Positions 31,009 through 47,602 of a stretch of DNA of 64,000 nt are shown here, piece after piece. This DNA comes from Limnochordia bacterium (lineage in GTDB: Bacteria; Bacillota; Limnochordia; Darwinibacteriales; DTU012), in the NCBI GenBank assembly GCA_007116995.1, contig SKHL01000030.1, forward strand, positions 11,525-75,524, in the 5' to 3' direction. Numbering within the stretch: the stretch's first letter is position 1; the number at the start of each line of letters is the position of its first letter. The notes beneath the pieces are model-generated. The model worked only from the letters and a program-made list of their open reading frames with translations, ran no database searches and had not been told where the DNA came from. The position numbers and the translations under genes were made by a program.

Positions 31009-31617
31009 CTAAAACCCATACCCGACTTCCCCCACCAAAAAATTAAATCTACCGATAAAATTACTTCTAATATCCTCTGTCTCCAAGTCCTTCACCGAGT
31101 TAATTGTCTCTATGATCTTCTGATTGAAATCACTAGGGTTGTAGTCATTCCATATCGTTCCACTACTTTTCATAAAAAGTCTCGCCTCATTCTTTAGAAC
31201 TCGATAATCAATGTCCTTCGCAATCCCCAACTCTTCCTCCGTGTAATCACCTATATACTTCCGAAGAATCATACCCATCAACTTCTTCTCGTACAACACA
31301 TAATCAGCGAAAAATTCTTTAATCGGTTTCGCTACGTCTGCTAAGTATGCCTCAGATGCATCGTGTAGCAAACAAAGCATCTGAATTCGAGAATTATATC
31401 CCTCATTATGAGCAACTAATTCACAGATATACGAATGAGCACCCACTGAGTAAAATATGTCCGTATGACCTGTAAACCGACATATATGAGATAAAGCATG
31501 TGCTATATCCACTATATCAATCTCATCTTCTCTCGGATCCAAAGGATAAATAATCTTCCCTGTATACGTCTCTACCCAACCACCAAATCTAGATTCCGTC
31601 TTCATCCCACTACACAC
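31009..31617 (-). CDS. HD-domain phosphohydrolase (YfbR-like 5'-deoxynucleotidase family)
   Basis: DIAHALSHICRFTGHT (H...HD region: IVDIAHALS / CLLHDASEAYLADVAKP) matches HD metal-binding motifs. 202 aa, like YfbR. Confidence 0.7.
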   Translation of the reverse strand: MCSGMKTESRFGGWVETYTGKIIYPLDPREDEIDIVDIAHALSHICRFTGHTDIFYSVGAHSYICELVAHNEGYNSRIQMLCLLHDASEAYLADVAKPIKEFFADYVLYEKKLMGMILRKYIGDYTEEELGIAKDIDYRVLKNEARLFMKSSGTIWNDYNPSDFNQKIIETINSVKDLETEDIRSNFIGRFNFLVGEVGYGF

Positions 31618-31945
31618 CTCTGTAGTACTTAAACAGACGTATCAAGTACCGAATCTGTTTTATACAGAAATCTATAAATACACTAGCCAGAAAAATAGAG
31701 ATAAAACCGATAAGAAGAGCCCCAACAATCTCATCTATTTCCAAGCTCAGATCAAAGAAACTTGATAGAATAAAAGAAGCCATCTGCACAACTACGTACA
31801 TTAACATGATCATAATCCCAATTACAAGAGAAACCGCAAAAAAACAAAGAAGATTAGACAGTATATTTCCCCCCACATCCTTCATAACACACTTCCAAAC
31901 TGATAATGTCCTTAAATTTATATCCTCCCCCTTATATTTAACCAC
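31610..31945 (-). CDS. Membrane protein, unknown function
   Basis: 111 aa, three hydrophobic stretches. Confidence 0.45.
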   Translation of the reverse strand: MVKYKGEDINLRTLSVWKCVMKDVGGNILSNLLCFFAVSLVIGIMIMLMYVVVQMASFILSSFFDLSLEIDEIVGALLIGFISIFLASVFIDFCIKQIRYLIRLFKYYRGV

Positions 31946-32325
31946 TCCGCTACACCCTCCAAAGTATAAAAAATTGTACCTCCGTTATTTCTAACCATAT
32001 CCATAACCGCGTCCAATGACTTTATCTGACCCTCAGTAAACCCACCTAGAAGAACACAGAGTAACGTCTTTTCCGGACGTTTATTACTATCATCCACAAC
32101 TTCCGCAATACTGTAGACCCCAGCCATCTCTGAAGTGATGACATATAATAGATAATCACATTCCTGTCTCTGAAGAATCTCCTCTACCCGAGCACTCTCA
32201 TTCCAATCCTCCACGACCGGATTAAAGTACCCAATCTCTAACATAGGGATTAATTCCTCTCTCCACGTAGAGCTATTACATGTCCCACCCAAAAACACTC
32301 TCGGTTTATCTATTCGATACCCCAT
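31918..32325 (-). CDS. Nucleoside 2-deoxyribosyltransferase-like (NDT/Rcl-fold) protein
   Basis: PRVFLGGTCNSSTWREELIPMLEIGYFNPVV...CDYLLYVITSEMAGVYSIAEVV fits the flavodoxin-like NDT/DNPH1 family pattern (Y/F-L-A/G-G...W...D....+....S.G...E.G). Confidence 0.5.
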   Translation of the reverse strand: MGYRIDKPRVFLGGTCNSSTWREELIPMLEIGYFNPVVEDWNESARVEEILQRQECDYLLYVITSEMAGVYSIAEVVDDSNKRPEKTLLCVLLGGFTEGQIKSLDAVMDMVRNNGGTIFYTLEGVAEWLNIRGRI

Positions 32326-32358
32326 AAACTACCCCACCCACTTTCTCTAATCTATAAT

Positions 32359-32375
32359 CCTATATACGGAAAAAC
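32359..32375 (-). promoter_or_regulatory. CCGTATATAGG motif upstream of the NDT-like gene
   Basis: GTTTTTCCGTATATAGGATTATAG; small hairpin ACGGATC/GATCCGT just upstream. Confidence 0.45.
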
Positions 32376-32415
32376 GGACCATATATGATCCGTTCCCAGT
32401 AACTATCGTATAGTA

Positions 32416-32811
32416 CTATTTTTCTTCTACGTACTTCTGAAACTCCTTCAACTCTTCTCCCACAACCCAGTCCTCTACAGACCCGATCCAATCACCGATT
32501 TCTTCCATCTTTAAATCCCGAACAGAAACCATGTTTACCAGATTCCAGAACGACTCATTCTCAAAGTTATTTTTTACACACCAAGCCATGAAATGTTTAA
32601 ACTCCTGGCCTAACTCTCCTCCCCACTTAGATCCAGTAGTAAAATACATCCTAAGAGCGTCATACATCTTATATTCTTCCTTACTAGAAAGATAGTCTGT
32701 AATCCACTCCCGTACCAACGCACTCTGATTATGACTCTTCTCTTTTGTCACTACACGAAATCTGTCTATAACCGCATTAGGGACTCTCACAATCAATTTT
32801 TTATCATCCAT
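32416..32811 (-). CDS. Ribbon-helix-helix (CopG/Arc-like) DNA-binding protein
   Basis: The N-terminus KKLIVRVPNAVIDRFRVVTKEKSHNQSALVREWITDYL has a beta-strand plus two helices pattern typical of RHH repressors. Confidence 0.5.
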   Translation of the reverse strand: MDDKKLIVRVPNAVIDRFRVVTKEKSHNQSALVREWITDYLSSKEEYKMYDALRMYFTTGSKWGGELGQEFKHFMAWCVKNNFENESFWNLVNMVSVRDLKMEEIGDWIGSVEDWVVGEELKEFQKYVEEK

Positions 32812-32828
32812 AGTTTATTACCTCTCTC

Positions 32829-33071
32829 TTAGTAAAATTTATATCCTTTTTTATTCGTATCTTCACCAGATACCCACCCACCAGCTAAATTACTTCTTTC
32901 ATCTAGGGTTAACTTTCGATCCAGAACCACCTCACAGATCTTAAAGAACTCATCAAAACTATACGCCTGAGTAGATGCTATATGAAGGGCAAGAAACTGA
33001 GTTAAGTTAGTAGGTCTCAACATAGTAAGATCGTCTAACTTTTTAAGACTCGTTGTAGATCTCCTCACCAC
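32829..33071 (-). CDS. Hypothetical protein
   Basis: 80 aa, GTG start after RBS AGAAAGGGGA. Confidence 0.4.
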   Translation of the reverse strand: MVRRSTTSLKKLDDLTMLRPTNLTQFLALHIASTQAYSFDEFFKICEVVLDRKLTLDERSNLAGGWVSGEDTNKKGYKFY

Positions 33072-33083
33072 ACCATCCCCTTT

Positions 33084-33227
33084 CTAAACTACCTTAGTAC
33101 GTTGACACCCACATTTTGAGCATTTATACGAATGTAACTTCCTAGAACCACACTCAACAAGACACGAAAACCGTAACTCATAGTCATGCCTGCAAAATAA
33201 CCACCGAATCCATCTCTTCAACCCCAT
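33084..33227 (-). CDS. Small zinc-ribbon ORF (47 aa) absent from the ORF track
   Basis: ATG 33227 preceded by consensus RBS TAGAGAGGGGTT. Encodes MGLKRWIRWLFCRHDYELRFSCLVECGSRKLHSYKCSKCGCQRTKVV (CxxC...CxxC). Stop TAG at 33084. A CCGTATATA motif lies just upstream. Confidence 0.4.
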   Translation of the reverse strand: MGLKRWIRWLFCRHDYELRFSCLVECGSRKLHSYKCSKCGCQRTKVV

Positions 33228-33446
33228 AACCCCTCTCTATGTTATATACGGACACTAATCCAATAGTTTTAAATTAGGTTCAAACTCTACTATATACGTC
33301 TTACCACACTCACGACAATGTAAAAACAAAATGAATGTGTTATCATCTACTTTCTGCGTCTCTCCCGCACAATCTAAATTCGTATCACAAGAACAGAACA
33401 TTGACGTTTCATACACCACCCCTATATCTCCCCTCACATTTAACGA

Positions 33447-33656
33447 TTATGCTAAAACCGCCTCAAACTCTTCAATCCACTGAGTATCTATCGTATGTCC
33501 AGTACCTTCAACATCACTCTCTAGGGCTACACGGTCTTTCATTGGAGGATACCTATAGTGAATCTCTGTTACATTCTTATACGTCTGTTCCAAAATACCG
33601 TTCTTAAAATACGGACTATCCTTCGTAAATGTAACCTTGACGTTAAACATATCCAT
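33447..33656 (-). CDS. Small early protein
   Basis: 69-aa ORF directly downstream of sigma70-like promoter copy 2 (33730-33759). Confidence 0.45.
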   Translation of the reverse strand: MDMFNVKVTFTKDSPYFKNGILEQTYKNVTEIHYRYPPMKDRVALESDVEGTGHTIDTQWIEEFEAVLA

Positions 33657-33729
33657 CTCCCCCTTCTAATTTTAAAACAGTCTTTTCTTCGTCACCCCTC
33701 AATCTGTACTATTTCCTAGTTCCACTTTA

Positions 33730-33759
33730 AGTATACCATACAAATATATACAAGTCAAT
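33730..33759 (-). promoter_or_regulatory. Sigma70-like early promoter, copy 2
   Basis: Same 45-bp element: -35 TTGACT, 17-nt spacer, TGgTATACT; downstream of hairpin 33774-33791. Confidence 0.7.
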
Positions 33760-33798
33760 ACTGTTAGAAAAAAGAGTCTCACCTGAGACTCCATAACA

Positions 33799-34005
33799 TT
33801 ACTGTTTTTCCTCATACGTAGTACAAGTCTGAGCCTGAAAAGGAAACCCCTTATATCTACCACTCTTTTCCCTATACAGAGAACACCTTCCCGGCTTTCC
33901 ATAGAATTTAATACATTTAAGGCAACTTTTCCTCATAGTCTCCAACTCTGACTTCAACCGTTCATTGTCTTTTAGTAAGTTATAGTAATCCTCATAGATA
34001 TTCAC
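33799..34005 (-). CDS. Small Cys-containing protein
   Basis: 68 aa; followed by hairpin terminator 33774-33791. Confidence 0.45.
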   Translation of the reverse strand: MNIYEDYYNLLKDNERLKSELETMRKSCLKCIKFYGKPGRCSLYREKSGRYKGFPFQAQTCTTYEEKQ

Positions 34006-34121
34006 AGTAAACTCCCACCCCTATCTACCTCAGAGAAATGAAAACCATCAGAACTGAAAAGAGTCCCACCAAAGAAGAAATAATAATTAACATATCCGCC
34101 ACACTCCATCCCCCCCCCTGT

Positions 34122-35192
34122 CTACCTTATATACTGTTCTCGTACCATCTTCAAATACTCCACACCGTCATAGAAGTCATCAAACGCAACTACCCTCTTA
34201 CTATCAGGATATAAGACCGTAATAGGGATACCCCATTCCCCTTCGTACCCACCAATCTTCTGACCAAAATCATCTACAATCTTATGCGTCCCACTCCGTA
34301 ACCATGTAGTCTTCCGACCCATATGAATCTTTTTCTGCATATCCACATAATGTTTATCCCCAACAGCAACAACATCACAACCCGCTAATTGTTCATTCAT
34401 TCTTCTCTGACTGTTCGTTGTATTCAGTCCAGATTCGTACTTAAACTTATGTCTTACACCGATCTTGTACGTACAGTCTCCCACAGTTATATAGACAATC
34501 CCACCATGCCAAAGATTAACTGCCTCCGCCTCTAAACAAACTTCCTGCATAAAATCTTTCCCATCCGTAGACGTAGACCAGTCATCATGATTCCCTCGTA
34601 CAAACGCAAGAGCCTTTGACTTCAGAAATCTAGCAGTGTCAATCACTAACATATCCTGAGCCCCAGGCGGAACTACCTGTTGATAAACCGCTCCTTTGTG
34701 ACCAGTCTGAAGATTATTATCCTTGTAGTCACCCATACCGATAAGATACAACCCGTCCGTTTCTATAATCCTGTTCCGATCTTCTAGAAACTTCTCATGA
34801 TCCGTACCAATACCACCTAAATGCCAATCCCCAGAGTAAGCAATTCCTATCGGTCTTGAATCCTCCACCGTTAAACTGACTTTAGTCTGTCGTGTATGTA
34901 ACTTACTGTCCGCCCTCTGTAACCCAATAATAGCAGACCAATACTCCTCTACTTCCTCAATAGAAGGTTCGTCTCTTTTATTGTCATACACAACATTATT
35001 CTTTCTAAACGAATTTTTAGTAAACTTTCCAATTAACTTCCTAAAATTCTCCGAATCTAAGTCCAGCTTGAACTCCTTCCCAACAATATCTGAAACCTCT
35101 TTCCAAGACTTTCCCTCAGACCTCAACTCCAACGCCCTTAATTTCGTATTTTCACTGTACTTCGTACCCAACAAAACATCTCCCGGACCCAT
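34122..35192 (-). CDS. Calcineurin-like metallophosphoesterase
   Basis: Motifs GDWHLG (GDxH), IGMGDYKDNN (GDxxD..N), RGNHDDW (GNHD/E), VGDKHY (GH-like); 356 aa. Confidence 0.7.
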   Translation of the reverse strand: MGPGDVLLGTKYSENTKLRALELRSEGKSWKEVSDIVGKEFKLDLDSENFRKLIGKFTKNSFRKNNVVYDNKRDEPSIEEVEEYWSAIIGLQRADSKLHTRQTKVSLTVEDSRPIGIAYSGDWHLGGIGTDHEKFLEDRNRIIETDGLYLIGMGDYKDNNLQTGHKGAVYQQVVPPGAQDMLVIDTARFLKSKALAFVRGNHDDWSTSTDGKDFMQEVCLEAEAVNLWHGGIVYITVGDCTYKIGVRHKFKYESGLNTTNSQRRMNEQLAGCDVVAVGDKHYVDMQKKIHMGRKTTWLRSGTHKIVDDFGQKIGGYEGEWGIPITVLYPDSKRVVAFDDFYDGVEYLKMVREQYIR

Positions 35193-35296
35193 TAAAGGGT
35201 AGTCATGTTCTAACCTATCCTGTATAGTTTTATATATAAAAAGCCCTAGATAATTAGGGCTTTCTAAATAGTCTATACTTTACCATGACTACCGTT

Positions 35297-35635
35297 CTAT
35301 TCTATATTGTACACAACCACCCTAATCCTACCAACCGCATGTTCCTCTTTTAACGTAAAAGACACAGTATAGAATTGTCCTTCTTCAAATTCCTGATCAA
35401 CCTCAAATGTGTAGAAATACCCATTATCCTTACTCGAAACCACAAATGTAATCGACTCTACAAACCTATTCTCCAAGAAGAACCCCGAGACTTCTAGTTC
35501 TCCCCCACGAAAGTAATGACTCACAACAGTAAACCCACTCGGCTCAATATACACAGGAATTTCTACAGGAACCTCCACAATAACCTCAACAGGAACATCC
35601 ACATAAATTACTTCCTTATCAACACTACCCCCCAC
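35297..35635 (-). CDS. Paralog of lipoprotein 35724-36080 (unknown function)
   Basis: VESITFVVSSKDNGYFYTFEVD aligns with VDTLTFIVDSRSSREVYTFKIE of the neighbour. Confidence 0.5.
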   Translation of the reverse strand: MGGSVDKEVIYVDVPVEVIVEVPVEIPVYIEPSGFTVVSHYFRGGELEVSGFFLENRFVESITFVVSSKDNGYFYTFEVDQEFEEGQFYTVSFTLKEEHAVGRIRVVVYNIE

Positions 35636-35723
35636 ACCCAGCCACCAACAAAGCTAAAATAAGTACTACAATCCACTTTTTCAATAAAAACACATCCCCC
35701 TATCTCTTTATTTAGTATACTAT

Positions 35724-36080
35724 TTAATATACGGACAATCTAACCGTTCCTGAAGTATAACTTCCGAGTCTGATTATAAAACTACGTGATTGATTTCTAC
35801 GAGTATACGTCTCAATCTTAAACGTATAGACCTCTCTAGAACTTCTCGAATCAACAATAAATGTCAGTGTATCCACCCAGCCACCATGAACAAAGTACCC
35901 ATCAATCACCAGTTCATTATGTCTGTTCACATAGTAGTCTGTTACCCGATACACCGAATTACTAGGGTATTCATACTCTACGTCAATATAGACCGTAGTT
36001 ATATGATTCATATTACAACCTGTCAACGTGATCATCAACATAAGAATTAAAATAGAAATACAAAATCTGCTCATACCCAT
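35724..36080 (-). CDS. Predicted lipoprotein (signal peptide plus lipobox LTGC)
   Basis: MSRFCISILILMLMITLTGC: hydrophobic signal with lipobox L-T-G-C. Confidence 0.55.
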   Translation of the reverse strand: MGMSRFCISILILMLMITLTGCNMNHITTVYIDVEYEYPSNSVYRVTDYYVNRHNELVIDGYFVHGGWVDTLTFIVDSRSSREVYTFKIETYTRRNQSRSFIIRLGSYTSGTVRLSVY

Positions 36081-36150
36081 ACCTCCCTGTCTTACGTTTA
36101 CGTACCTACTCTTTTACCCTTTACCGTCTTACCGTACTATAATTCTGTAA

Positions 36151-36780
36151 TCACCGGCTCAGGAAATGAGTAAATAAAGCAGACTTTCCAGTCTTCTTAT
36201 CCACAACCTTGAAATGTCTCTTTACTACATGTTTCTGTACCTCTTCCGTCGGAAACGTCCACGGAACCACTACCTCTTTAATCTCTTTACCAAAAACACC
36301 CGCCAAAACTTCCAGTTCCTCAGAAGAAACTTGAACCAAATCCGTACCTTCCCAGTTCTTCATTCGTAACATACCACCTTTCTCAGGCACATCCCACGGT
36401 ACCGACTGTACCGGCTGTTTCCAGTAGTCATTACTTTGATAAATATTACCAAGCAATCTCATCCGATACCCGGCAGAAAATAACTCGTGTAACCCAACAA
36501 ACCGCCCGTCCTTCTCCGCAATTCCAAACATATAATTCTTGTAGAATATTCTCCCCCTCACAACCAACTCATTTAGAGTGAGTTCAACGTAGTCACCCTC
36601 CCAAAAACGAGTTTTAGTATCAATATCAAAATGTACCAGTTCTCCAACTGTAGAAGGATCTACTTTTACTCTCTGTTTTTTATAGAGAATATACCTCACG
36701 TTATTCATTTTACAAATTAAACTTCCACAAACCCAAGACTTATACCCTAGAGAATACCCTCTGAAAACGCGCTTTTTCAT
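36151..36780 (-). CDS. Hypothetical protein, possibly YopX-like
   Basis: N-terminal RVFRGY..., VKVDPSTVGELVHFDIDTKTRFWEGDYVEL is loosely YopX-like. Weak. Confidence 0.3.
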   Translation of the reverse strand: MKKRVFRGYSLGYKSWVCGSLICKMNNVRYILYKKQRVKVDPSTVGELVHFDIDTKTRFWEGDYVELTLNELVVRGRIFYKNYMFGIAEKDGRFVGLHELFSAGYRMRLLGNIYQSNDYWKQPVQSVPWDVPEKGGMLRMKNWEGTDLVQVSSEELEVLAGVFGKEIKEVVVPWTFPTEEVQKHVVKRHFKVVDKKTGKSALFTHFLSR

Positions 36781-36781
36781 T

Positions 36782-37063
36782 CTAGTTTCTCCTTTCCATT
36801 ACCTTACCAATCTCTTCATAAATATCCTTAAAACTAGCTCCGTTCTTCATGAGAAATACAATATATTTCCCACAACTTTCAATCTGACAATCCTGCAACT
36901 GTATATTCATCTCCCCTAACCTCAGATCCATTCGGATCATTAACCGTAAAAGAAACCAGGCAGACCTACATCTAGTAAACTGATCTTCCGTCTGATCTTC
37001 GAAAATACGAAAATTCGTATCAAACTCCACTATACTTTCCGTTATATCTCTTAAGTCATCCAC
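36782..37063 (-). CDS. Hypothetical protein
   Basis: 93-aa ORF. Confidence 0.4.
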   Translation of the reverse strand: MDDLRDITESIVEFDTNFRIFEDQTEDQFTRCRSAWFLLRLMIRMDLRLGEMNIQLQDCQIESCGKYIVFLMKNGASFKDIYEEIGKVMERRN

Positions 37064-37692: not shown

Positions 37693-37880
37693 TTTATTCG
37701 TGAAACAATCTCACCAGAATTTATCTCTCAGATCATATACTACATCAACCAGTATACGAGCAAACCAGAAAATGACCCTAACCACAAAGAAAGGCACAAT
37801 CAGTATCACGTATAGAAGTATCCGTAAAACAGTCTCCAAAACCTCTACCACCCGTCCCACCCCAAAACATCCTCTCTAAA

Positions 37881-38111
37881 CTATTTATCATCATACTTAT
37901 TGACTAACTCCACTAAAGAATCATACCCCTCAAACGGCTCCTCCTCCGTCCAAACATCAACATTAGACAACGCCAACTTCAGACCTTCCAACAACTCTTT
38001 CTTTTCCTCTTTTAGTCTACCATTTTCACACTCTAACCGACCAACATGACTAATCAAATTCGTTTTACCTTCCACTATACACGACCCCTTTCTAATCTCC
38101 ACTCTTCCCAC
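37881..38111 (-). CDS. Small hypothetical protein
   Basis: 76-aa ORF. Confidence 0.35.
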   Translation of the reverse strand: MGRVEIRKGSCIVEGKTNLISHVGRLECENGRLKEEKKELLEGLKLALSNVDVWTEEEPFEGYDSLVELVNKYDDK

Positions 38112-40888: not shown

Positions 40889-41644
40889 CTACAAATTCCT
40901 TTTGAGATTTTCATTACTACGTGAAACCACTAATTTCTTTGAATCTCGAAAACCGCGAAACTCATCCGGAGAAATATCAATAACAGTTCTCGGAGAAAAC
41001 CATCCCCGTCCGTCATCATTCATTTTTACGAACATAGAATCTTCCCCTTCTACCAAACTCGCAGTACTCTGCCAAACCGACCCAACCTCAAGAGTCTGAC
41101 CACCTACTCTAATTTCCCGCAAGACAACAAACCGATCATTCACATCCAGACCCAAATTCCTACGTTTTTCTTCCTCTTTCCGGTCTCTCTCTTCTCTTTG
41201 AACCTCCGGATCCTGTGACGTATCCGAATTCCCAAACGTAGTATAATCAATCCTACACGAAATTCCCTTACTCTTTACCACACTACGAAGTTTTTCTACC
41301 CAGTTCGTTACTTTCTTAAATGTCATATCCTTACTCACAGACTCCACCAATAACCATGTATTGACTTCTCCGCCCCCAGCAAAAATACTCTTGTTAAAAG
41401 TCTCCCTAGCCATATAATTGCTATCCCCTACCTGCTCATCGACTACTCTCCACTTCTTACCTAAAACCTTCTTCACAAACTCATCAATAATTTTATCTCG
41501 ATTATCCGACACATTAGTTTTAATCACAAGAGTAGCAAAACCCCAACCAACCGAAGTTTTCCGTCTCCCCTCACTTACAGACTGTAACTTACTCACCCTT
41601 AAACCTTCAAGTATCTTACCATGATTTTTCATAACTCCACCCAC
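40889..41644 (-). CDS. Hypothetical two-domain protein
   Basis: 251-aa ORF (likely start MKNHGK). A charged linker PEVQREERDRKEEEKRR separates the N and C domains. Confidence 0.5.
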   Translation of the reverse strand: MGGVMKNHGKILEGLRVSKLQSVSEGRRKTSVGWGFATLVIKTNVSDNRDKIIDEFVKKVLGKKWRVVDEQVGDSNYMARETFNKSIFAGGGEVNTWLLVESVSKDMTFKKVTNWVEKLRSVVKSKGISCRIDYTTFGNSDTSQDPEVQREERDRKEEEKRRNLGLDVNDRFVVLREIRVGGQTLEVGSVWQSTASLVEGEDSMFVKMNDDGRGWFSPRTVIDISPDEFRGFRDSKKLVVSRSNENLKRNL

Positions 41645-41823
41645 CTCAAAAGTAAATTCAGTAACATATATAATCTATACGAAAAAAGAGAGAACCAAGT
41701 ACGTCCTCCCTCCATCTGAAGCGATCCGGTTCCACTTCACAGACCACCCCAGGAACATTCCACCTCAGACTCACTTTTGAGTCTTTTGAAACTAACACCT
41801 GATCGTCCAAAACACCAACCCCT

Positions 41824-42267
41824 CTAGTTTATCAAAGTCCGATAATGAGCTCTTTGTATGTTATACCCACCAGCGACTATCGTAGTGACTGAAACACTCT
41901 TAACATCACCAGTTACCCGACCATCCAACCCACCATTGTCATTACGATAAACATCAAATTCCAAAATGTTGCCAGCTTTTTTCTCCAACCTCCGAAGAAG
42001 ATTCGTCTTTCTGTCCTCCGCATCCCTCCGAAACATTTTCTCCATATCCTCATCTGTCGCCCCAAACCGAATGTCCCGAGCAATATATTTAGGGCAGTTA
42101 TTTCGGAGAAAATTGTCGGCTTTCTCATGAGCCTCACGATACCCCTCTGACAGTAAACCACCATGATCATTACGAATCCGAGTATATTCACTTTTAATGT
42201 TCCGAAACCACTCGAGATCCCGAATAACAGTCTCCTCAATCCACTCATCAAGATTCGTATATTTCAT
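41824..42267 (-). CDS. Hypothetical early protein
   Basis: 147 aa directly downstream of sigma70-like promoter copy 5. Confidence 0.5.
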   Translation of the reverse strand: MKYTNLDEWIEETVIRDLEWFRNIKSEYTRIRNDHGGLLSEGYREAHEKADNFLRNNCPKYIARDIRFGATDEDMEKMFRRDAEDRKTNLLRRLEKKAGNILEFDVYRNDNGGLDGRVTGDVKSVSVTTIVAGGYNIQRAHYRTLIN

Positions 42268-42312
42268 ATCTAAACCCCCTTCCTAACACTAGTATCTCTC
42301 AACCACACTCTA

Positions 42313-42341
42313 AGTATACCATACAAAACTATACAAGTCAA
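42313..42341 (-). promoter_or_regulatory. Sigma70-like early promoter, copy 5
   Basis: TTGACT-17-TGgTATACT; hairpin ATAACCCT-GATT-AGGGTTAT at 42356-42375 upstream. Confidence 0.7.
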
Positions 42342-42393
42342 TACGTACAGAAAAAATAACCCTGATTAGGGTTATTTATATGAGTCTCAATCA

Positions 42394-42684
42394 TCATGAA
42401 TTCTTAGAGTTATCCACAGTACCCCCAGAGTTATCCACAGAAGACTTCCTCTTTAAATGACTCCCAATATCTTCCCCACAGAACGGGCAGAAATTAAACA
42501 TAAGACCCTTCTTATGTTCTCCCGACTTCGTACCAAACCCATGAGTATACTGTTCCCCCGTATCTAGATTCGTTACCACCAAATCAAAGATACCCTTCCT
42601 TATACGAGTATACAAGTCATCGACAGTCTGATCCAACAACTCACACGGAATAACCTTCTTACCCTCTACTCTACACTTACTCAC
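42394..42684 (-). CDS. Small Cys-containing protein
   Basis: 96 aa; CPFCGEDIGSH. Confidence 0.4.
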   Translation of the reverse strand: MSKCRVEGKKVIPCELLDQTVDDLYTRIRKGIFDLVVTNLDTGEQYTHGFGTKSGEHKKGLMFNFCPFCGEDIGSHLKRKSSVDNSGGTVDNSKNS

Positions 42685-42696
42685 ACAAACCCCTCC

Positions 42697-42936
42697 CTAC
42701 TGTATTAAATCCTCTTCTTCAAAGTAACTTATGTCTCCCAATTTCTCACAAAAAACCTCTATCTCTAGTACATCACTATCTTTTCTATAATCATAATTGT
42801 AATAGACCCGATCTATCTCATACATAACTCCACTAACAGTCAAAATCTCCCCCACCAAAGGAGACGAATTAACCGAATCCCACTCGACTGTACTCAACTC
42901 CACATCACCACAAATAAAGAATAATCTAGTTCTCAT
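42697..42936 (-). CDS. Small hypothetical protein
   Basis: 79 aa; ATGA overlap with tdk. Confidence 0.4.
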   Translation of the reverse strand: MRTRLFFICGDVELSTVEWDSVNSSPLVGEILTVSGVMYEIDRVYYNYDYRKDSDVLEIEVFCEKLGDISYFEEEDLIQ

Positions 42937-43541
42937 ATACTCTCCCTCCCCGACCTCTCCCTACTAAAAAATCGAGAAAGAAAATCCTTTCTACAAACCG
43001 GAACATACTTATCATTTCCACCAATCTCAATCTGATCCCCGTCTACCACGATCTCACCATTTTCGTCCGTTCTCATATTAAAAATCGCCTTCCTATCACA
43101 GAACCAACAAATAGTCTTCACTTCCTCAATCGAATCAGCATATACTAATAGATGATAGCTACCCTCAAATAAGTTCCCCTGAAAATCAGACTTCAGACCA
43201 TAGCAAATGACCGGGACATTATGTGTATCCACAATCATAACCAACTGCATAATATGTTCATATGTAAGAAACTGAGACTCATCTACCAGTATACAGTCAA
43301 TCGCCCTCGACTCTAGTCCTAATTTCAAAATGTCCTCAATATCATCATTCTTACTAATAACAACCGCACTACGACTCATCCCCATACGAGACGTTACCTT
43401 ACCAATACCATACCGATCATCAATACTAGGGGCAAGTACCACTACGAACTTCCCCCTCTCTTCATAATTATGAGCGATTTTTAAAATCTCAACCGACTTA
43501 CCCGCGTTCATAGTAGAGTACCGAAAGTATAGTTTCGCCAA
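42933..43541 (-). CDS. tdk: Thymidine kinase
   Basis: P-loop YSTMNAGKSVEIL, Walker B ILVDESQFL, and the Zn-binding lasso CWFCDRKA...CRKD; 202 aa. Confidence 0.85.
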   Translation of the reverse strand: MAKLYFRYSTMNAGKSVEILKIAHNYEERGKFVVVLAPSIDDRYGIGKVTSRMGMSRSAVVISKNDDIEDILKLGLESRAIDCILVDESQFLTYEHIMQLVMIVDTHNVPVICYGLKSDFQGNLFEGSYHLLVYADSIEEVKTICWFCDRKAIFNMRTDENGEIVVDGDQIEIGGNDKYVPVCRKDFLSRFFSRERSGRESI

Positions 43542-43714
43542 AGAAAGACCTCCCCAAGTTATTTATCCTCCCTGAATGTCCCTCCCAATATAGTGTATAT
43601 GTCCCTCACCAAAGACTCAAACACCTCGTCATACTCATTATACGAGTACTGTTCTCGTACAATCTTTCTCGCCCTAGTCCACAGTTTTTTATCTACCTTC
43701 ATATATAAACTCCC

Positions 43715-44044
43715 CTATCTAGAATAGAAACTGTTCGTAACCGCAATCTCCGTATGATTCCCCATCCGACCCTCTTCGTTAATACAGTCCACAATACCCG
43801 GATCCCGAGCTAAAACAGAAAAAACGAACTTGTCCAAGTTTTGACAACAGTAATCCTTGTACCCTACCCAGATCTGAGTCCCCCGAATGTTCATGTCATC
43901 CAAAATCTCTAAGAATACCCCTATCCCCATCTGATACTTTGCAAAAATACTTGTCAACACAGACCCGGCACCCGGATTCCCCTCAGACATAATAGCCATA
44001 GCCTCACCCAAACCCACAGTCTGAAAATCAATCTTCTCTCTCAT
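43715..44044 (-). CDS. Hypothetical protein
   Basis: 109-aa ORF. Confidence 0.45.
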   Translation of the reverse strand: MREKIDFQTVGLGEAMAIMSEGNPGAGSVLTSIFAKYQMGIGVFLEILDDMNIRGTQIWVGYKDYCCQNLDKFVFSVLARDPGIVDCINEEGRMGNHTEIAVTNSFYSR

Positions 44045-44987
44045 CTACCTATCTCCTTTCTATACTATCTCAAATGTAGTTCCCTCATAAATAGGGTTTA
44101 ATTGTACTATACCAAACTTCTTCCCCTTCTGAGTCCGAAACACCAACCATCCATCTTCCCTTTTTTCAACCTCAACAATCGTCCCCTCTCTAGCCCACAT
44201 ACTATCCAGAAGTCTGACCTTCATTTCTCCTACACTCCTCACATCGTACTATTTCCGGATGATATACAACTAAGTGATATACTCTAACCCCATACTTCTC
44301 ACATAGGTGAATTTCTTTCCGGCTTGTCTGATCTTTTTCATTAGGAGATAAATACCCACACTGACCACAAAACCTTGACCTATCTACAAGCATCATCTTC
44401 CCCCTTACCCCAAGACTCCTTCCCTGTCAGTAAGAGTCCCCTAGCAAAATACGCCATCTGTAACATACCTTCGTCCATCTCATCCCGTTTCTCGATCTTC
44501 TCAAACCCATCTATTTGTTTATTTAGACACTCAAGATCAATTTCCACCGTACCCCTAGCTCTACACACCTTCCCCATTCTACTCCCACCTTTCCCCATTC
44601 CACCGTGTTAGATTTATCTTCCGTTTCTTACCCGTATCAAATGTCTCTAACATCCCATGACCTATACGGTACGACCACGCCTCACAATGATAGAAAAACT
44701 CACTTAGAGATAGTAGTACGTTTCCCCAGAAGTATCTCGGCATATAACAGATTACCATCAATATCCTCCTACTTTTACGAAAAAGTACACTACTCACTCT
44801 GTTCACCATCCAACATACAGTCAATAAACTCCTTACATTCCCTCAGTGACCCTTTAGGGTACACTTTCTCCACCCGAACCATATCTAGTGTATAGATAAA
44901 CCATCTCGGCTCACTTTTATACGGATGATTCTCAATCTTGAACCCTCTGTACTCATGAATCTTTCTACTTTTTTCTGAACTCATACT

Positions 44988-45299
44988 CTAACCATCCTCT
45001 ACCACGTTATCACATATCTCAATATCGTCCGACTCACACTCCGGACACCACACGTCTACTTCATTAAAATAACTCGTATAACTACCAAGAGACGAACTAC
45101 AACCCTTCCACCCACACTCCTTACATTCAGCGGGATAAAACCCTCTCTTCAACTCTTCCTCCGTACATAACGTCCTCACCTTAACCCTCAACTCCCTCAT
45201 ACGTCTTTCCGAGAACATTACCGCCCTCAAGTCACGATACTTCTTCCGATTGTTCTGACCCTTCTTCCCGAAGATCTTTCTCCATCTCTTATACTCCAC
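44988..45299 (-). CDS. Basic protein with C-terminal zinc ribbon
   Basis: CKECGWKGC...CPECESD. Confidence 0.45.
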   Translation of the reverse strand: MEYKRWRKIFGKKGQNNRKKYRDLRAVMFSERRMRELRVKVRTLCTEEELKRGFYPAECKECGWKGCSSSLGSYTSYFNEVDVWCPECESDDIEICDNVVEDG

Positions 45300-45630
45300 T
45301 GTTACACTCCTTAGTTTCCAATAAACTCCTCACTTCCAACTCCCTAGACATATTACTCCGTAACCAGTTTTCCATAAACCGAACCGCCCGATCAGTCTTT
45401 TTCTCGTATGTAATACCAAACAATCTCTCTAAAAAGTTAGGGTTTCTGACGATCCTGTGATAGTTAATCGTATGAGCAATATTGATATTGTCCCACTCAT
45501 GCACACCCGAAAGAACCCTATATTCACAAGTGACTACAACATAATCTCCCCAAACACCACCACAACCTAAGATAGTACACTCCACGTTCCCAACAGTAAA
45601 TCTACTCAGATTCCTCTTCTCGAATTCCAT
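45289..45630 (-). CDS. Hypothetical protein
   Basis: 113-aa ORF. Confidence 0.45.
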   Translation of the reverse strand: MEFEKRNLSRFTVGNVECTILGCGGVWGDYVVVTCEYRVLSGVHEWDNINIAHTINYHRIVRNPNFLERLFGITYEKKTDRAVRFMENWLRSNMSRELEVRSLLETKECNSGV

Positions 45631-45872
45631 TATTTTTCTCCTTTACTTCTTCATAGTAATCCAACGCACGCAAAGCCCCTCCCCCATACCCTAATCGGCT
45701 AAGAGCGTGAGACACATCATACCCTTTACCTTCATCGACTTTACCGTCTAACCAATGAAATCTAAATGTCTTCACTGTAATCCGCCTTTCTAAGTTTAAC
45801 TCTTTGAACTTAAATCTTCATATTTAACTCCTACACATCAAAACAACCCCTCTCTAAATTTAACTCTCTATA

Positions 45873-45893
45873 CCACTATATACGGAAAAAGAG
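45873..45893 (-). promoter_or_regulatory. CCGTATATAG motif after the terminator of gene 45913-46158
   Basis: CTCTTTTTCCGTATATAGTGG after hairpin 45890-45912. Confidence 0.45.
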
Positions 45894-45912
45894 TCCCAAA
45901 AAACACGAGACT

Positions 45913-46158
45913 CTAGAAATAAAGTGGTTTATTCATCACTAATTCATACCTACCAGATTTAAGTAAAATCTTAGCTCGTTTCCTCTCTCTGTGAACTTCT
46001 CTCAAGTCCGGTCTACATCCTATGTTACCGTTTCTCCTACGATAGTTACGAGTACATCCACAAATACAACGATCCTGTCTTCTCTTGACCCGAGTACCGA
46101 CTAACTTCCCTCCACGTAAAATAGCTTTACCTAATTTTGTTGGTTCTTTTTCAGTCAA
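45913..46158 (-). CDS. Small highly basic Cys-containing protein (nucleic-acid-binding candidate)
   Basis: 81 aa, rich in R/K with CICGC...C; followed by hairpin 45890-45912. Confidence 0.45.
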   Translation of the reverse strand: MTEKEPTKLGKAILRGGKLVGTRVKRRQDRCICGCTRNYRRRNGNIGCRPDLREVHRERKRAKILLKSGRYELVMNKPLYF

Positions 46159-46741
46159 GACTATCTCACCTTCCCCAATTAGTCTAGTAGTACAGAACCC
46201 ACCACCGTTTCAACTCACACCCAAACACAAACATCTTCATACTAATAACTACCGAATACACAACAAAGATTTGTGATAACATATATACTACCTTCAACCA
46301 GAACGGATCTAAACTACCCGAGAATAAAAAAGTCCAAATGTCATAAAGCATAAATACAAGTATAATCATCAGTATAGAAAACAAGAAAAACTTCTTCATT
46401 TCTCTAACTCACCCTACCTCACTCTGAAAGCTAAGTTCATAGAAACTACATCCCCCAGTCTACTCTTCATAATCATCACCAGGATCATAGGAAATCGTCA
46501 TAGTAACAGTCTCCACCTCAGAATCTCGTTTCCGATCCTGATTCACAGTATCAAACATCCATTGATCTAACATATAATATACCGAATTTTCATCGTCCTC
46601 TATAGACTCAATCTCACGAACACCAAAAAACCCTAATCTATACAACTTACCCGGTTTTGAATGTGTCTTCGCATTAGATATGTCCACTTCAGGGAACTTA
46701 ATTACCTTATTCATACCTACCCTCCTATGATATTTAATACC

Positions 46742-47602
46742 CTACCTCACAAACATACTATTCCCCACAATCCAGAATAACGTCTTGTTATTCTCCGTGT
46801 CTAAATTCTTCATCATGTAGTTATACGCCTTACTTTCATAAATCGGATCAAGATACTCCTTATCACTAAACATGACCTTCAACATTCTCGAATACGGATA
46901 TGTCTTATCCTGAATATATTCGTAGTCACAATAGTAGTCACCAGCAATCTGATTGATCGTATTCCGTCTGTCATACCCCGCAATCTGAATACCAATGACC
47001 TTTTTAGGGTGTTTATTGTACTTAGTCAGACCTCTTAAAATTCCTCCAAATGTAATACCACTACCAATATTAACGACCAATAAGTCTAAATCATCCGGTA
47101 TATTCTGTACCTGATTCGAGATAGAGTCCACAATCGCTCGCGTATTATTGTAGAGATTAATCCCAAACTTAATAACGAAGTAGTTATGATACTTACATAT
47201 AGAATCAATCCGACTCATTAAAACGTTCTCATACCCCATCTTCGCCTCCGAATCAATTTCACACCCAAACGATAACGCACGATTCATCATCACATTCTGA
47301 GATAGTGTTTTCTCCTTAGTCGCACCCACAACCAAAATCGAACGAAACCCGAACTCCTTTGCCGCTCTCGACACGATAATCCCCTGAGGAGACTTCACAG
47401 AAGTCGCAGTAATCACAGTCCCCTCACACTCATCCCGAATATACTCATAGTTATCTCGTAGTAAGCAAAGAGATTGTCTCACCTTACCACCAGAAAGAGG
47501 AACATCATGAAAAGGGACGTATAAATCGTCCCTTTTATATAAAATACCTCTATGTTCCTCTACCGGAGTCAACTCATCTATCCCATACCCATCAAAATCC
47601 AC
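46742..47602 (-). CDS. PLP-dependent enzyme of the ACC-deaminase / D-cysteine-desulfhydrase family (tryptophan-synthase-beta fold)
   Basis: LYKRDDLYVPFHDVPLSGGKVRQSLCLL...GTVITATSVKSPQGIIVSRAAKEFGF parallels DcyD [22 protein letters not shown]...[25 protein letters not shown], including the PLP-binding Lys in GGK. The Gly-rich loop VVNIGSGITFGGILRGL matches VVASGSAGTHAGLAVGL. Confidence 0.7.
   Translation of the reverse strand: MDFDGYGIDELTPVEEHRGILYKRDDLYVPFHDVPLSGGKVRQSLCLLRDNYEYIRDECEGTVITATSVKSPQGIIVSRAAKEFGFRSILVVGATKEKTLSQNVMMNRALSFGCEIDSEAKMGYENVLMSRIDSICKYHNYFVIKFGINLYNNTRAIVDSISNQVQNIPDDLDLLVVNIGSGITFGGILRGLTKYNKHPKKVIGIQIAGYDRRNTINQIAGDYYCDYEYIQDKTYPYSRMLKVMFSDKEYLDPIYESKAYNYMMKNLDTENNKTLFWIVGNSMFVR

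What the first reader, a model, noticed from the sequence alone, without database searches (positions are those of the whole stretch)
31009..47602. Nucleotide/base metabolism with unusual members (PLP ACC-deaminase-fold enzyme, spermidine-synthase-like protein, NDT-like, HD nucleotidase, tdk, dut): possible DNA hypermodification or salvage pathway
Besides the standard dut (21610-22290) and tdk (42933-43541), the window encodes four less usual enzymes. These are a YfbR-like HD 5'-deoxynucleotidase (31009-31617), a nucleoside-2-deoxyribosyltransferase/Rcl-fold protein (31918-32325), a spermidine-synthase-like class-I SAM-fold protein with a degenerate GGGDG loop (37051-37692), and a tryptophan-synthase-beta-fold PLP enzyme of the ACC-deaminase/D-Cys-desulfhydrase family (46742-47602). 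PLP enzymes, aminopropyl/aminocarboxypropyl-type transferases and nucleotide kinases or phosphatases recur in known phage thymidine/uracil hypermodification pathways. There, 5-hmdU is pyrophosphorylated and decorated with amino-acid or polyamine moieties. A dUMP hydroxymethylase or glycosyltransferase is not visible in this window, so any pathway would need partners elsewhere. Alternatively these are auxiliary metabolic genes, such as H2S, ammonia or polyamine production.
Basis: partly seen in the sequence, partly recalled or inferred. Interest (0 to 1): 0.58.

Follow-up and report, generated by a model that had tools for sequence, protein, structure and literature searches.

The report
Phage PLP enzyme paired with methylase-like gene
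The six nucleotide-metabolism genes are real but are mostly unrelated accessory genes of a large uncultured phage; the PLP enzyme stands out because it is related to a known phage DNA-decorating enzyme and recurs in many phages next to a cytosine-methylase-like gene, which suggests an undescribed DNA base modification.

Summary
All six ORFs exist at the stated coordinates and their fold assignments hold. They are not a cluster. HD phosphatase, NDT-like, SpeE-fold protein, tdk and the PLP gene lie scattered in a 24-kb accessory island (27.4-51.8 kb) that a related phage lacks.

Only the PLP gene (46742-47602) points to DNA hypermodification. Its best family is phrog_3650, which holds Salmonella phage ViI gp226, the proven decarboxylase of O-seryl-thymidine in DNA. 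The two share 26% identity, and K40 aligns with the catalytic K92. It falls far below the ACC-deaminase cut-offs.

The 5-hmdU machinery is absent from every window ORF of 150 aa or more and from 84 homologous loci.

The PLP clade (~290 aa) instead travels with one family of 'FTSPPY' methyltransferase-like genes. These occur in 38 of 84 loci, in at least 12 architectures, often abutting the PLP gene. The pair also occurs as Mycobacterium phage Vincenzo gp1-gp2. The window's copy is 24372-25598, outside the reported span. In relatives of this phage the two genes are neighbours.

Most likely this is a two-enzyme DNA base modification, in which the methylase-like enzyme installs an amino-acid-bearing group and the PLP enzyme trims it. 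The chemistry is inferred. The SpeE-fold gene, HD, NDT, tdk and dut do not co-occur with the PLP gene.

The parts
46742..47602 (-). PLP-dependent enzyme (286 aa) of the Trp-synthase-beta/ACC-deaminase fold. It belongs to the short (~290 aa) clade of the phage gp226 family. The predicted Schiff-base lysine is K40, and the Y255-E256-x-K258 motif is invariant in the family.
   Evidence: PALP E 6e-10. phrog_3650 E 2.8e-34; ViI gp226 is phrog_3650 at E 2.5e-241. BLASTP against gp226 gives 26% identity, E 3e-18, with K40 aligned to K92. 334 homologues, with invariant residues listed. The family profile hits only 1j0a in the PDB.
24372..25598 (-). Class-I SAM-dependent amino-methyltransferase-like protein (408 aa). 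Motif I is LDTSAGYGGR and motif IV is FTSPPYF..E.YS.E.TQS, the N4-cytosine-methylase-type signature.
   Evidence: N6_N4_Mtase 24 bits and an RsmD-like hit. AF2 model pLDDT 89; Foldseek finds Trm11, TrmM, Bud23 and TYW2-type methyltransferases. The family HMM hits 38 of 84 PLP loci. The gene is adjacent to PLP in relatives L179, L180 and L181 and in L014 and L016.
27442..51753 (.). 24-kb accessory island of mostly small ORFs. It holds the PLP gene, tdk, the SpeE-fold gene, the NDT-like gene, the HD phosphatase, two phosphoesterases' neighbours, PTH2, peptide deformylase and two tRNAs. The island is absent from related phage contig L181, where its flanking genes are adjacent.
   Evidence: In L181 the homologues of window 51754-52719 and 26197-27441 are consecutive genes. 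The island is present in the 87%-identity relative L012.
31009..31617 (-). HD-domain phosphohydrolase of the phage 'deoxyribonucleoside 5'-monophosphate phosphatase' family.
   Evidence: phrog_318 E 3e-47. PDB 2gz4 E 1e-8 and YfbR E 4e-3. Homologues in 288 phage records of many kinds.
31918..32325 (-). Nucleoside 2-deoxyribosyltransferase-like protein (PF15891), 135 aa.
   Evidence: PF15891 at 36.7 bits, above the gathering score of 30. 53% identity to proteins of Lak megaphages and a C. difficile phage.
37051..37692 (-). Small spermidine-synthase-fold class-I SAM enzyme (206-213 aa). It lacks the Asp of the GGGDG loop (it reads GLGIG). Substrate unknown.
   Evidence: phrog_15480 'methyltransferase' E 1e-30. 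606 homologues. AF2 pLDDT 94, with spermidine synthases as top Foldseek hits, E about 1e-6 and TM about 0.5. NCBIfam SpeE 21 bits against a cut-off of 472.
42933..43541 (-). Thymidine kinase (TK1 type).
   Evidence: Pfam TK E 1e-49. NCBIfam NF003300 256 bits, above the cut-off of 195.
21610..22290 (-). Trimeric dUTPase-fold protein (226 aa) with a long insertion. Ser replaces the catalytic Asp of motif III, so it is probably not an active dUTPase.
   Evidence: PDB dUTPases E 9e-12, with the alignment showing IISSGYRGE against IDEGYRGE. The homologue in L179 keeps the Asp, reading VVDAIYRGE.
16616..17362 (-). CxxCxxCC-type metal-binding protein. It is a homologue of the gene that lies between PLP and the methylase-like gene in one group of loci (L088-L096). 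The link is weak.
   Evidence: HMM of neighbour cluster c99 (Pfam CxxCxxCC E 8e-5) hits this ORF at E 4e-7. Cys motifs are visible in the sequence.

Best explanation
The window is part of a 122.5-kb uncultured phage genome, probably from a gut or rumen sample.

tdk, the HD dNMP phosphatase, the PF15891 NDT-like protein, the small SpeE-fold SAM enzyme and the dUTPase-like protein are independent nucleotide-pool or accessory genes.

The PLP enzyme (46742-47602) is a DNA-hypermodification tailoring enzyme of the ViI gp226 family. Its functional partner is most likely the TSPPY methyltransferase-like protein at 24372-25598.

Proposed mechanism (inferred, not shown):
1. After replication, the methylase-like enzyme attaches a group that carries a free alpha-amino acid to an exocyclic amine of a base in phage DNA. 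The motif suggests N4 of cytosine. The only such group a SAM enzyme can donate is the 3-amino-3-carboxypropyl moiety of SAM.
2. The PLP enzyme forms a Schiff base with that alpha-amine through K40 and decarboxylates it, as gp226 does with O-seryl-thymidine.
3. This leaves a cationic aminoalkyl side chain that would shield the DNA from host nucleases.

What is shown: the homology to gp226, the conserved catalytic residues, and the recurrent gene linkage with the methylase-like family. What is inferred: the substrate, the transferred group and the target base.
For: **PLP family.**
- The best PHROG is phrog_3650 (E 2.8e-34), the family of ViI gp226 (E 2.5e-241).
- gp226 is an experimentally proven PLP decarboxylase acting on amino-acid adducts in DNA (PMC8989533).
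- K40 aligns with gp226 K92, and the C-terminal YE.K and LFWIVG motifs are shared.

**Linkage with the methylase-like family.**
- Of all window ORFs, only the PLP gene (83 loci) and 24372-25598 (31 loci by blastp; 38 of 84 by HMM) recur in PLP loci. The next best family is in 8.
- The methylase-like gene is on the same strand within 4 kb. It abuts or overlaps the PLP gene in about 14 loci, across at least 12 different gene architectures.
- Within the window's own lineage the gene orders are MT-87aa-PLP (L179, L180) and clamp-MT-MT-dUTPase-PLP (L181).
- In an NJ tree the window MT groups with six homologues. Three (P0129, P0133, P0145) lie on contigs verified to carry a PLP homologue; the other three are inferred from matching contig lengths.
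- Mycobacterium phage Vincenzo gp1 (ParB plus the MT domain, E 7e-15) overlaps gp2 (PLP, E 3e-36).

**Other direct neighbours of this PLP clade are DNA-modification-type genes**:
- a beta-class N6_N4 methylase;
- a radical SAM enzyme preceded by ParB genes;
- a 2OG oxygenase;
- a GlnA-like ligase.

One further neighbour family is fused to PLP in P0094.

**Absence of the 5-hmdU machinery.** None is found in the window or in the 84 loci.
Against: - In the window itself the two genes are 21 kb apart, as they also are in the 87% relative.
- The methylase-like family is much larger than the PLP clade (at least 490 IMG/VR loci against 181). None of its 80 best loci has a PLP gene within 10 kb. So the enzyme works alone in most phages and may be an ordinary N4-cytosine methyltransferase.
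- Some PLP loci (L004, L005 and the Ackermannviridae) have no such gene nearby.
- The fold search cannot tell methyl transfer from aminocarboxypropyl transfer.
- No PLP-MT fusion protein was found.
- 58 kb of the genome was not available, so a kinase or aGPT-Pplase could be encoded there.
- No experimental data exist for any member of the short PLP clade.
Confidence: 0.5

Rival explanations
1. The PLP enzyme is the decarboxylase of a classical 5-hmdU-based thymidine hypermodification pathway. The hydroxymethylase, 5-hmdU DNA kinase and amino-acid:DNA transferase (aGPT-Pplase) would lie in the unseen 58 kb, with the HD phosphatase, dut and tdk shaping the pyrimidine pools.
For: The only characterised homologue, gp226, works in exactly such a pathway. 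In ViI the pathway genes are also dispersed. Half of the genome could not be inspected.
Against: No Thymidylat_synt, HMUDK or aGPT-Pplase hit in any of the 46 minus-strand window ORFs of 150 aa or more, which include the replication and nucleotide-metabolism modules. ViI gp243 and gp247 find nothing in the window or in 84 PLP loci. The related contigs L181 and L012 show none. A thymidine kinase would feed dTMP into DNA, which is not expected of a phage that replaces T. The window PLP belongs to the short clade (35-87% identity), not to the 424-aa gp226 type (22-27% identity).
Confidence: 0.15
2. The methylase-like protein is a plain DNA N4-cytosine (or N6-adenine) methyltransferase. The PLP enzyme modifies DNA, or makes a precursor, with some other unidentified partner. 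The two genes sit together only because phage DNA-modification and anti-restriction genes tend to be collected in the same islands.
For: The MT family is mostly PLP-less. It carries the classical TSPPY signature, and one homologue is annotated as an N4-cytosine methylase. The PLP gene also abuts other enzyme types: radical SAM, 2OG oxygenase and a beta-class methylase.
Against: Linkage in 38 of 84 loci across at least 12 architectures, with frequent start/stop overlap, is far above what a family found in fewer than 0.1% of viral contigs would give by chance. The pair is the only thing shared between otherwise unrelated phages.
Confidence: 0.2
3. The PLP enzyme is an auxiliary metabolic gene acting on free small molecules. 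It would have ACC-deaminase, D-cysteine-desulfhydrase or threonine-dehydratase-like chemistry, producing ammonia, H2S or keto-acids, and would be unrelated to DNA.
For: The fold and the best solved structure are those of an ACC-deaminase homologue. The Y-E pair typical of ACC deaminases is present (and my own knowledge of ACC-deaminase residues). Annotators of phage homologues use such names.
Against: Scores are 38 and 36 bits against curated cut-offs of 550 and 289. The protein is closer to gp226 than to any cellular enzyme. Its neighbours are DNA enzymes: DnaB, helicases, gyrase, ParB and methylases.
Confidence: 0.12
4. A uracil-DNA lifestyle, like Bacillus phages PBS1 and AR9. An inactive dUTPase-like protein, a dNMP (dTMP) phosphatase and a kinase able to phosphorylate deoxyuridine would raise dUTP and lower dTTP.
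For: The window helicase is most similar to those of AR9 and PBS1 (40% identity). The dUTPase-like protein lacks the catalytic Asp. An HD dNMP phosphatase is present.
Against: No other gene resembles AR9 or PBS1 beyond weak DHH hits. No dCTP or dCMP deaminase and no glycosylase inhibitor were recognised. The relatives L179 and L181 keep canonical dUTPase motifs. G+C is 39%, against about 28% in PBS1-type phages (my own knowledge).
Confidence: 0.03

Closest known systems
Salmonella phage ViI gp226 (and Pseudomonas phage M6 gp52): PLP-dependent decarboxylases of thymidine hypermodification (Lee et al. 2018, 2021; PMC5889632, PMC8989533)
   Same: Same PHROG family (phrog_3650) and the same Trp-synthase-beta/ACC-deaminase fold. 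The catalytic lysine aligns, and the C-terminal YE.K and LFWIVG motifs are shared. Both are phage-encoded and set among DNA enzymes.
   Different: Only 26% identity. The window protein is about 290 aa against 424 aa. No 5-hmdU kinase, aGPT-Pplase or hydroxymethylase accompanies it. It travels with a methyltransferase-like gene instead. M6 gp52 is not detectably similar by BLAST.
N4-cytosine / N6-adenine DNA amino-methyltransferases (Pfam PF01555; PROSITE PS00093 signature [LIVMF]-T-S-P-P-[FY]) and the related Trm11, RsmD and TrmN6 RNA amino-methyltransferases
   Same: The window protein 24372-25598 has the class-I SAM fold, a motif I (D.S.G.GGR) and an exact FTSPPY motif IV. Structural neighbours are Trm11, TrmM and Bud23.
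   Different: It scores below the Pfam gathering threshold (24.4 against 26.7 bits). It has a large conserved N-terminal helical domain and an extended invariant motif (E260, Y262, Q268). It is recurrently coupled to a PLP enzyme, for which a methyl group offers no substrate.
SAM-dependent 3-amino-3-carboxypropyl transferases of RNA (TYW2, Tsr3, TapT)
   Same: These offer a chemical precedent for a methyltransferase-fold enzyme donating the amino-acid part of SAM to a nucleobase. TYW2 appears among the structural neighbours at rank 32.
   Different: There is no specific sequence relationship. These enzymes act on RNA, not DNA. No PLP follow-up step is known for them. The analogy is from my own knowledge and was not tested.
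ACC deaminase / D-cysteine desulfhydrase family (PDB 1j0a; NCBIfam NF010646, TIGR01275)
   Same: Fold, Schiff-base lysine position and Tyr-Glu pair.
   Different: The scores are about one tenth of the curated cut-offs. The context is phage-specific and DNA-associated.
Spermidine synthase (SpeE)
   Same: The predicted fold of 37051-37692 is closest to spermidine synthases, including the N-terminal beta domain.
   Different: It is about 200 aa against about 290 aa. The loop Asp that recognises decarboxylated SAM is missing (GLGIG). It scores 21 bits against a cut-off of 472. It is not linked to the PLP gene.

Membership tests
ViI gp226-type PLP hypermodification enzymes (phrog_3650) | Significant match to the family profile that contains the characterised member | tested here: met
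   Window PLP against phrog_3650: E 2.8e-34. gp226 against phrog_3650: E 2.5e-241.
ViI gp226-type PLP hypermodification enzymes (phrog_3650) | Schiff-base lysine equivalent to gp226 K92 | tested here: met
   K40 aligns with K92 in BLASTP. K40 is invariant in 30 family members.
ViI gp226-type PLP hypermodification enzymes (phrog_3650) | Decarboxylation of an amino acid attached to a base in DNA | not testable with these tools
   Needs enzyme assays on modified DNA.
5-hmdU-based thymidine hypermodification pathway | dUMP hydroxymethylase (thymidylate-synthase fold) or T-dioxygenase supplying 5-hmdU | tested here: not met
   No Thymidylat_synt or 2OG-oxygenase hit in any window ORF of 150 aa or more. 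The 58 kb outside the window was not inspected.
5-hmdU-based thymidine hypermodification pathway | 5-hmdU DNA kinase (P-loop) and aGPT-Pplase / amino-acid:DNA transferase | tested here: not met
   No Pfam hit (same calls). ViI gp243 and gp247 find nothing in the window or in 84 PLP loci. Sensitivity is limited for divergent kinases.
ACC deaminase / D-cysteine desulfhydrase | Score above the curated NCBIfam cut-off | tested here: not met
   NF010646: 37.8 bits against 550. TIGR01275: 35.9 bits against 289.
N4-cytosine / N6-adenine DNA methyltransferase (PF01555) | SAM-binding motif I and catalytic (S/D/N)PP(Y/F) motif IV | tested here: met
   LDTSAGYGGR and FTSPPY are present. D174, G178, G180, R182, S253, P254 and Y256 are invariant in 39 homologues.
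N4-cytosine / N6-adenine DNA methyltransferase (PF01555) | Pfam gathering score | tested here: not met
   24.4 bits against 26.7. Most homologues carry no precomputed PF01555 hit.
Spermidine synthase (SpeE) | Curated family score and the GGGDG Asp that binds decarboxylated SAM | tested here: not met
   21.3 bits against 472. The loop is GLGIG, and G80, L81, G82 and G84 are invariant in the family. Only the fold matches.
Trimeric dUTPase | Catalytic Asp in motif III (G-x-I-D-x-x-Y-R-G-E) | tested here: not met
   The window reads IISSGYRGE, aligned to IDEGYRGE of FIV dUTPase and to VVDAIYRGE of the L179 homologue. NCBIfam dut scores 45.6 bits against 102.6.
Thymidine kinase (TK1) | Family score above the curated cut-off | tested here: met
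   NF003300: 256 bits against 195. Pfam TK E 1e-49.
Nucleoside 2-deoxyribosyltransferase-like (PF15891) | Pfam gathering score | tested here: met
   36.7 bits against 30. Activity was not tested.
YfbR-type HD 5'-deoxynucleotidase | Pfam YfbR-like gathering score | tested here: not met
   13 bits against 25.9. The protein belongs instead to phage family phrog_318 (E 3e-47), with the H..HD..D metal motif visible in the sequence.

The most novel reading that the evidence does not exclude
A widespread and so far undescribed two-gene phage module, made of a TSPPY methyltransferase-fold enzyme and a gp226-like PLP enzyme, makes a new kind of DNA hypermodification that does not start from 5-hydroxymethyl-uracil. 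The SAM enzyme would transfer the 3-amino-3-carboxypropyl group of SAM to an exocyclic amine, probably N4 of cytosine. The PLP enzyme would decarboxylate it to an aminopropyl side chain. Variants of the module would recruit ParB, radical SAM, 2OG-oxygenase or ligase partners. Cultured carriers such as Mycobacterium phage Vincenzo would make this directly testable.
Probability: 0.17. Interest if true: 0.85.

Novelty: new variant of a known kind. Interest (0 to 1): 0.62.

Why it matters
Known amino-acid-derived DNA hypermodifications of phages all decorate 5-hydroxymethyl-uracil, using a kinase and a glycosylase-like transferase.

A PLP tailoring enzyme that is instead linked to an amino-methyltransferase-like enzyme would be a second, independent route to cationic DNA side chains. 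It might act on cytosine or adenine. The linkage is seen in dozens of unrelated phages from gut, rumen, marine and soil samples, and in cultured mycobacteriophages.

Such a route would bear on three areas: how phages evade restriction and CRISPR systems, how such DNA is sequenced, and enzymatic DNA labelling.

Even if the chemistry proves different, the analysis gives three practical results:
- The phage 'ACC deaminase' and 'threonine dehydratase' annotations are probably wrong.
- The partner gene is identified.
- A cultured test system is named.

Tried and rejected
1. **Recovering the rest of the genome.** The PLP cluster record shows a 122,512-bp contig, but look-ups returned only short Logan fragments. 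A 50-mer from the window end is absent from IMG/VR.
2. **Finding a cultured relative.** There was no megablast match. A 2.5-kb concatenated protein query found only scattered hits of about 30% identity.
3. **Comparison with phage M6.** Neither the window PLP nor the ViI proteins detect anything in the M6 genome by phmmer or tblastn.
4. **SpeE-fold protein as the installing enzyme for the PLP step (an aminocarboxypropyl idea).** Rejected as the conserved partner. It is absent from all 84 PLP loci and from the syntenic region of the 87% relative.
5. **HD, NDT, tdk and dut as PLP partners.** No co-occurrence beyond lineage synteny was seen.
6. **Reciprocal test.** The 80 best methylase-like loci have no PLP gene within 10 kb, so the link is one-directional.
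7. **Search for PLP-methylase fusion proteins.** None was found. One PLP fusion exists with a different small neighbour family.
8. **Uracil-DNA (PBS1-like) idea.** Discarded, as set out under the rival explanations.
9. **Literature searches** for PLP plus methyltransferase, aminocarboxypropyl or aminopropyl DNA modifications in phages found nothing relevant. Iyer et al. 2013 is not held in the library.

Full report
**What the window is.**
- All long ORFs lie on the minus strand. G+C is about 0.39 and the GC skew is extreme and uniform, -0.32 to -0.53 on the plus strand.
- The window encodes a phage replication module: DnaX-like clamp loader, clamp, primase, SSB, Dda-like helicase, RNase H and a sigma-like factor. 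There are also many small ORFs.
- It is part of a 122,512-bp metagenomic contig. Fragments of the same phage occur in Logan sample SRR7083930.
- No cultured phage is close. Megablast found nothing, and a concatenated protein query gave only scattered hits of about 30% identity.
- Homologues of several genes come from rumen or gut assemblies and from Lak megaphages.

**Check of the observation.**
- tdk is unambiguous.
- The HD protein belongs to a very common phage family annotated as dNMP phosphatase. phrog_318 scores E 3e-47, and there are 288 phage records including lambdoid prophages.
- The NDT-like protein passes the PF15891 gathering score.
- The 'SpeE-like' protein is barely detectable by sequence. 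A confident AF2 model (pLDDT 94) has spermidine synthases as its best structural neighbours. It lacks the loop Asp that recognises decarboxylated SAM.
- The PLP protein has the ACC-deaminase/Trp-synthase-beta fold.
- The 'standard dut' is not standard. The catalytic Asp of motif III is a Ser, while a homologue in a related phage keeps the Asp.
I scanned all 46 minus-strand ORFs of 150 aa or more against Pfam. I also searched the window with ViI gp243 (kinase) and gp247 (transferase), without result.

**The PLP enzyme.**
- It is not an ACC deaminase by the curated models (38 bits against 550).
- Its best family is phrog_3650 (E 2.8e-34). I located ViI gp226 in the ViI genome and showed that it is the archetype of phrog_3650 (E 2.5e-241).
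- Lee et al. showed that gp226 is a PLP-dependent decarboxylase. It converts O-seryl-thymidine in DNA to 5-(2-aminoethoxy)methyl-dU, and K92 was predicted as its Schiff-base lysine (PMC8989533; PMC5889632).
- In a pairwise alignment (26% identity, E 3e-18) the window K40 falls on K92. The C-terminal YE.K and LFWIVG motifs are shared.

**The partners are different from those proposed.**
- The window protein belongs to a clade of about 290-aa proteins with hundreds of metagenomic members at 35-87% identity. This clade is distinct from the 424-aa Ackermannviridae type (22-27% identity).
- I collected 84 loci carrying this clade: 80 from IMG/VR plus ENA contigs. I then compared every window ORF with them.
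- Apart from the PLP gene itself, only one window family recurs, the 408-aa protein at 24372-25598. It is in 31 loci by blastp and in 38 of 84 by a family HMM; the next family is in 8.
- This protein has a class-I SAM-methyltransferase fold. The AF2 model has pLDDT 89, and its neighbours include Trm11, TrmM, Bud23 and, further down, TYW2.
- It carries an invariant motif I and an invariant FTSPPYF..E.Y....Q motif. FTSPPY is the PROSITE N4-cytosine-methylase signature (my own knowledge), and a Vibrio phage homologue is annotated that way.
- In the PLP loci the gene lies on the same strand within 4 kb. It abuts or overlaps the PLP gene in about 14 loci, in at least 12 unrelated architectures: after DnaB, after gyrase B, in T4-like replication modules, and next to terminase genes.
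- Some copies carry an N-terminal ParB domain.
- Mycobacterium phage Vincenzo and AlanGrant gp1 (annotated 'ParB-like') contains this domain (E 7e-15). It overlaps gp2, a member of the PLP clade (E 3e-36).

**The window's own lineage.** Three related contigs fix the ancestral arrangement.
- L179 and L180 (PLP 58% identical) read MT - 87 aa - PLP - two small genes - dUTPase-like - homologue of window 20555-21556.
- L181 (PLP 68% identical) reads clamp - MT - MT - dUTPase - PLP - the same 343-aa gene - primase.
- The window has the same backbone: clamp 26197, MT 24372, helicase, dUTPase-like 21610, 20555, primase 17374. Its PLP gene, however, sits 21 kb upstream.
- In L181 the homologues of window genes 51754-52719 and 26197-27441 are adjacent. 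So the 24 kb between them in the window is an accessory island. It holds PLP, tdk, the SpeE-fold gene, the NDT-like gene, HD, deformylase, PTH2 and two tRNAs.
- The 87% relative L012 has the island. It keeps PLP, tdk and the phosphoesterase but has no SpeE-fold gene at the syntenic place.
- In an NJ tree of the methylase-like family the window copy groups with six homologues. Three (P0129, P0133, P0145) sit on contigs verified to carry a PLP homologue; for the other three this is inferred from matching contig lengths.

**Other neighbours of the PLP clade.** These point to DNA chemistry:
- a beta-class N6_N4 methylase with an altered motif (TSCPD; Pfam E 3e-18);
- a radical SAM enzyme (CSHGCKYC), preceded by two ParB-like genes, recalling the M6 gp53/gp52 pair;
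- an Asp/Asn-hydroxylase-type 2OG oxygenase;
- a glutamine-synthetase-like ligase;
- a CxxCxxCC protein, which has a homologue in the window at 16616-17362.

A further small neighbour family is fused to the PLP domain in P0094. ViI-type kinase and transferase homologues are absent from all 84 loci.

**Limits of the linkage.**
- The methylase-like family is larger than the PLP clade, with at least 490 IMG/VR loci. None of its 80 best loci has a PLP gene within 10 kb.
- Bacteroides phage DAC16 and Vibrio phage 2.058.O have it without a nearby PLP gene.
- The enzyme can therefore work alone and may simply methylate DNA.
- Conversely, some PLP loci (L004, L005) show no such gene within 10 kb. The L005 contig does carry one elsewhere, judged from matching contig lengths.
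- No fusion of the two was found.
- The fold cannot reveal which part of SAM is transferred.

**Most likely mechanism (inference).**
- gp226 needs a free alpha-amino acid tethered to DNA.
- A SAM-dependent enzyme can supply exactly one such group, the 3-amino-3-carboxypropyl moiety. TYW2, Tsr3 and TapT do this on RNA (my own knowledge).
- I therefore propose that the TSPPY enzyme alkylates an exocyclic amine, probably N4 of cytosine. The PLP enzyme then decarboxylates the adduct through K40, leaving a cationic aminopropyl base.
- The Glu next to the conserved Tyr (Y255-E256, also present in gp226) would protonate the pyridine nitrogen. It does so in ACC deaminase, and this favours carbanion chemistry (my own knowledge).
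- I put about 0.5 on 'PLP plus methylase-like enzyme form a DNA-modification module'. I put about 0.17 on this specific chemistry.

**The rest of the finding is ordinary.** tdk, the HD phosphatase, the NDT-like protein and the SpeE-fold enzyme are individually widespread accessory genes. They show no linkage to each other or to the PLP gene. They lie in a variable island, so there is no evidence that they form a salvage or hypermodification pathway together.

**Verdict.**
- Observation: confirmed.
- Interpretation: partly supported. The PLP lead is good, but the proposed ensemble and the 5-hmdU route are not supported.
- New result: a recurrent pairing of a PLP enzyme and a TSPPY-methylase-like enzyme. 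It was not found in the held literature and is testable in cultured mycobacteriophages.

Noticed in passing
window 1-64000: The strand asymmetry is extreme and uniform. GC skew is -0.32 to -0.53 in every 2-kb bin, so the coding (minus) strand has roughly 2.5 times more G than C. AT skew is near zero, and all long ORFs lie on one strand across 64 kb.
   Followed up: no
window 21610-22290: The dUTPase-fold protein has a long insertion between motifs III and IV, and Ser replaces the catalytic Asp (IISSGYRGE). The homologue in related contig L179 (3636-4238) keeps the Asp. The protein may be an inactive or repurposed dUTPase.
   Followed up: partly
window 27442-51753 compared with L181 4710-7110: A 24-kb block of mostly small ORFs is absent from a related phage, where its two flanking genes are adjacent. 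All five 'unusual' genes of the finding lie inside this variable island.
   Followed up: partly
L009 1-2275 (Mycobacterium phage Vincenzo gp1-gp2; also AlanGrant): gp1, annotated 'ParB-like partition protein', carries a C-terminal amino-methyltransferase-like domain (motif FSCPPY). It overlaps gp2, annotated 'carboxylate deaminase' or 'nucleoside deaminase', which is a member of the gp226-like PLP clade. These annotations are probably misleading.
   Followed up: partly
L079-L092, about 8000-10850 in each locus: A conserved block reads ParB-like, ParB-like, radical SAM (CSHGCKYC), PLP, directly upstream of terminase genes. It resembles the M6 gp53/gp52 isomerase-decarboxylase pair, but no kinase or aGPT-Pplase was detected within 10 kb.
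   Followed up: no
L049, L054-L064, L070, L072, L077 (gene directly upstream of PLP): In T4-like contigs a roughly 390-aa Asp/Asn-beta-hydroxylase-type 2OG oxygenase directly precedes the PLP gene. A roughly 145-aa protein follows it, and that protein is fused to the PLP domain in protein P0094.
   Followed up: partly
window 16616-17362: This 248-aa protein has CxxC...CGGKCC motifs. It is homologous (E 4e-7) to the CxxCxxCC protein that sits between PLP and the methylase-like gene in loci L088-L096.
   Followed up: partly
window 29700-29878: Two adjacent tRNA genes on the minus strand: tRNA-Ser(TGA) and tRNA-Arg(TCT).
   Followed up: no
window 28389-28931, 48630-49031, 19602-20090, 2870-3436: Further auxiliary genes: peptide deformylase (E 9e-35), PTH2 peptidyl-tRNA hydrolase, a JAB-domain protein and a sigma-70 region-2 protein.
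   Followed up: no
window 22350-23498: The best matches of the Dda/RecD-like helicase are the uracil-DNA jumbo phages AR9 and PBS1 (40% identity). No other window gene shows a comparable relationship.
   Followed up: partly
window 23532-24056: A DUF5662 protein (E 3e-38) lies two genes downstream of the methylase-like gene. A DUF5662 gene also occurs 10 kb upstream of the PLP-methylase pair in L016.
   Followed up: no
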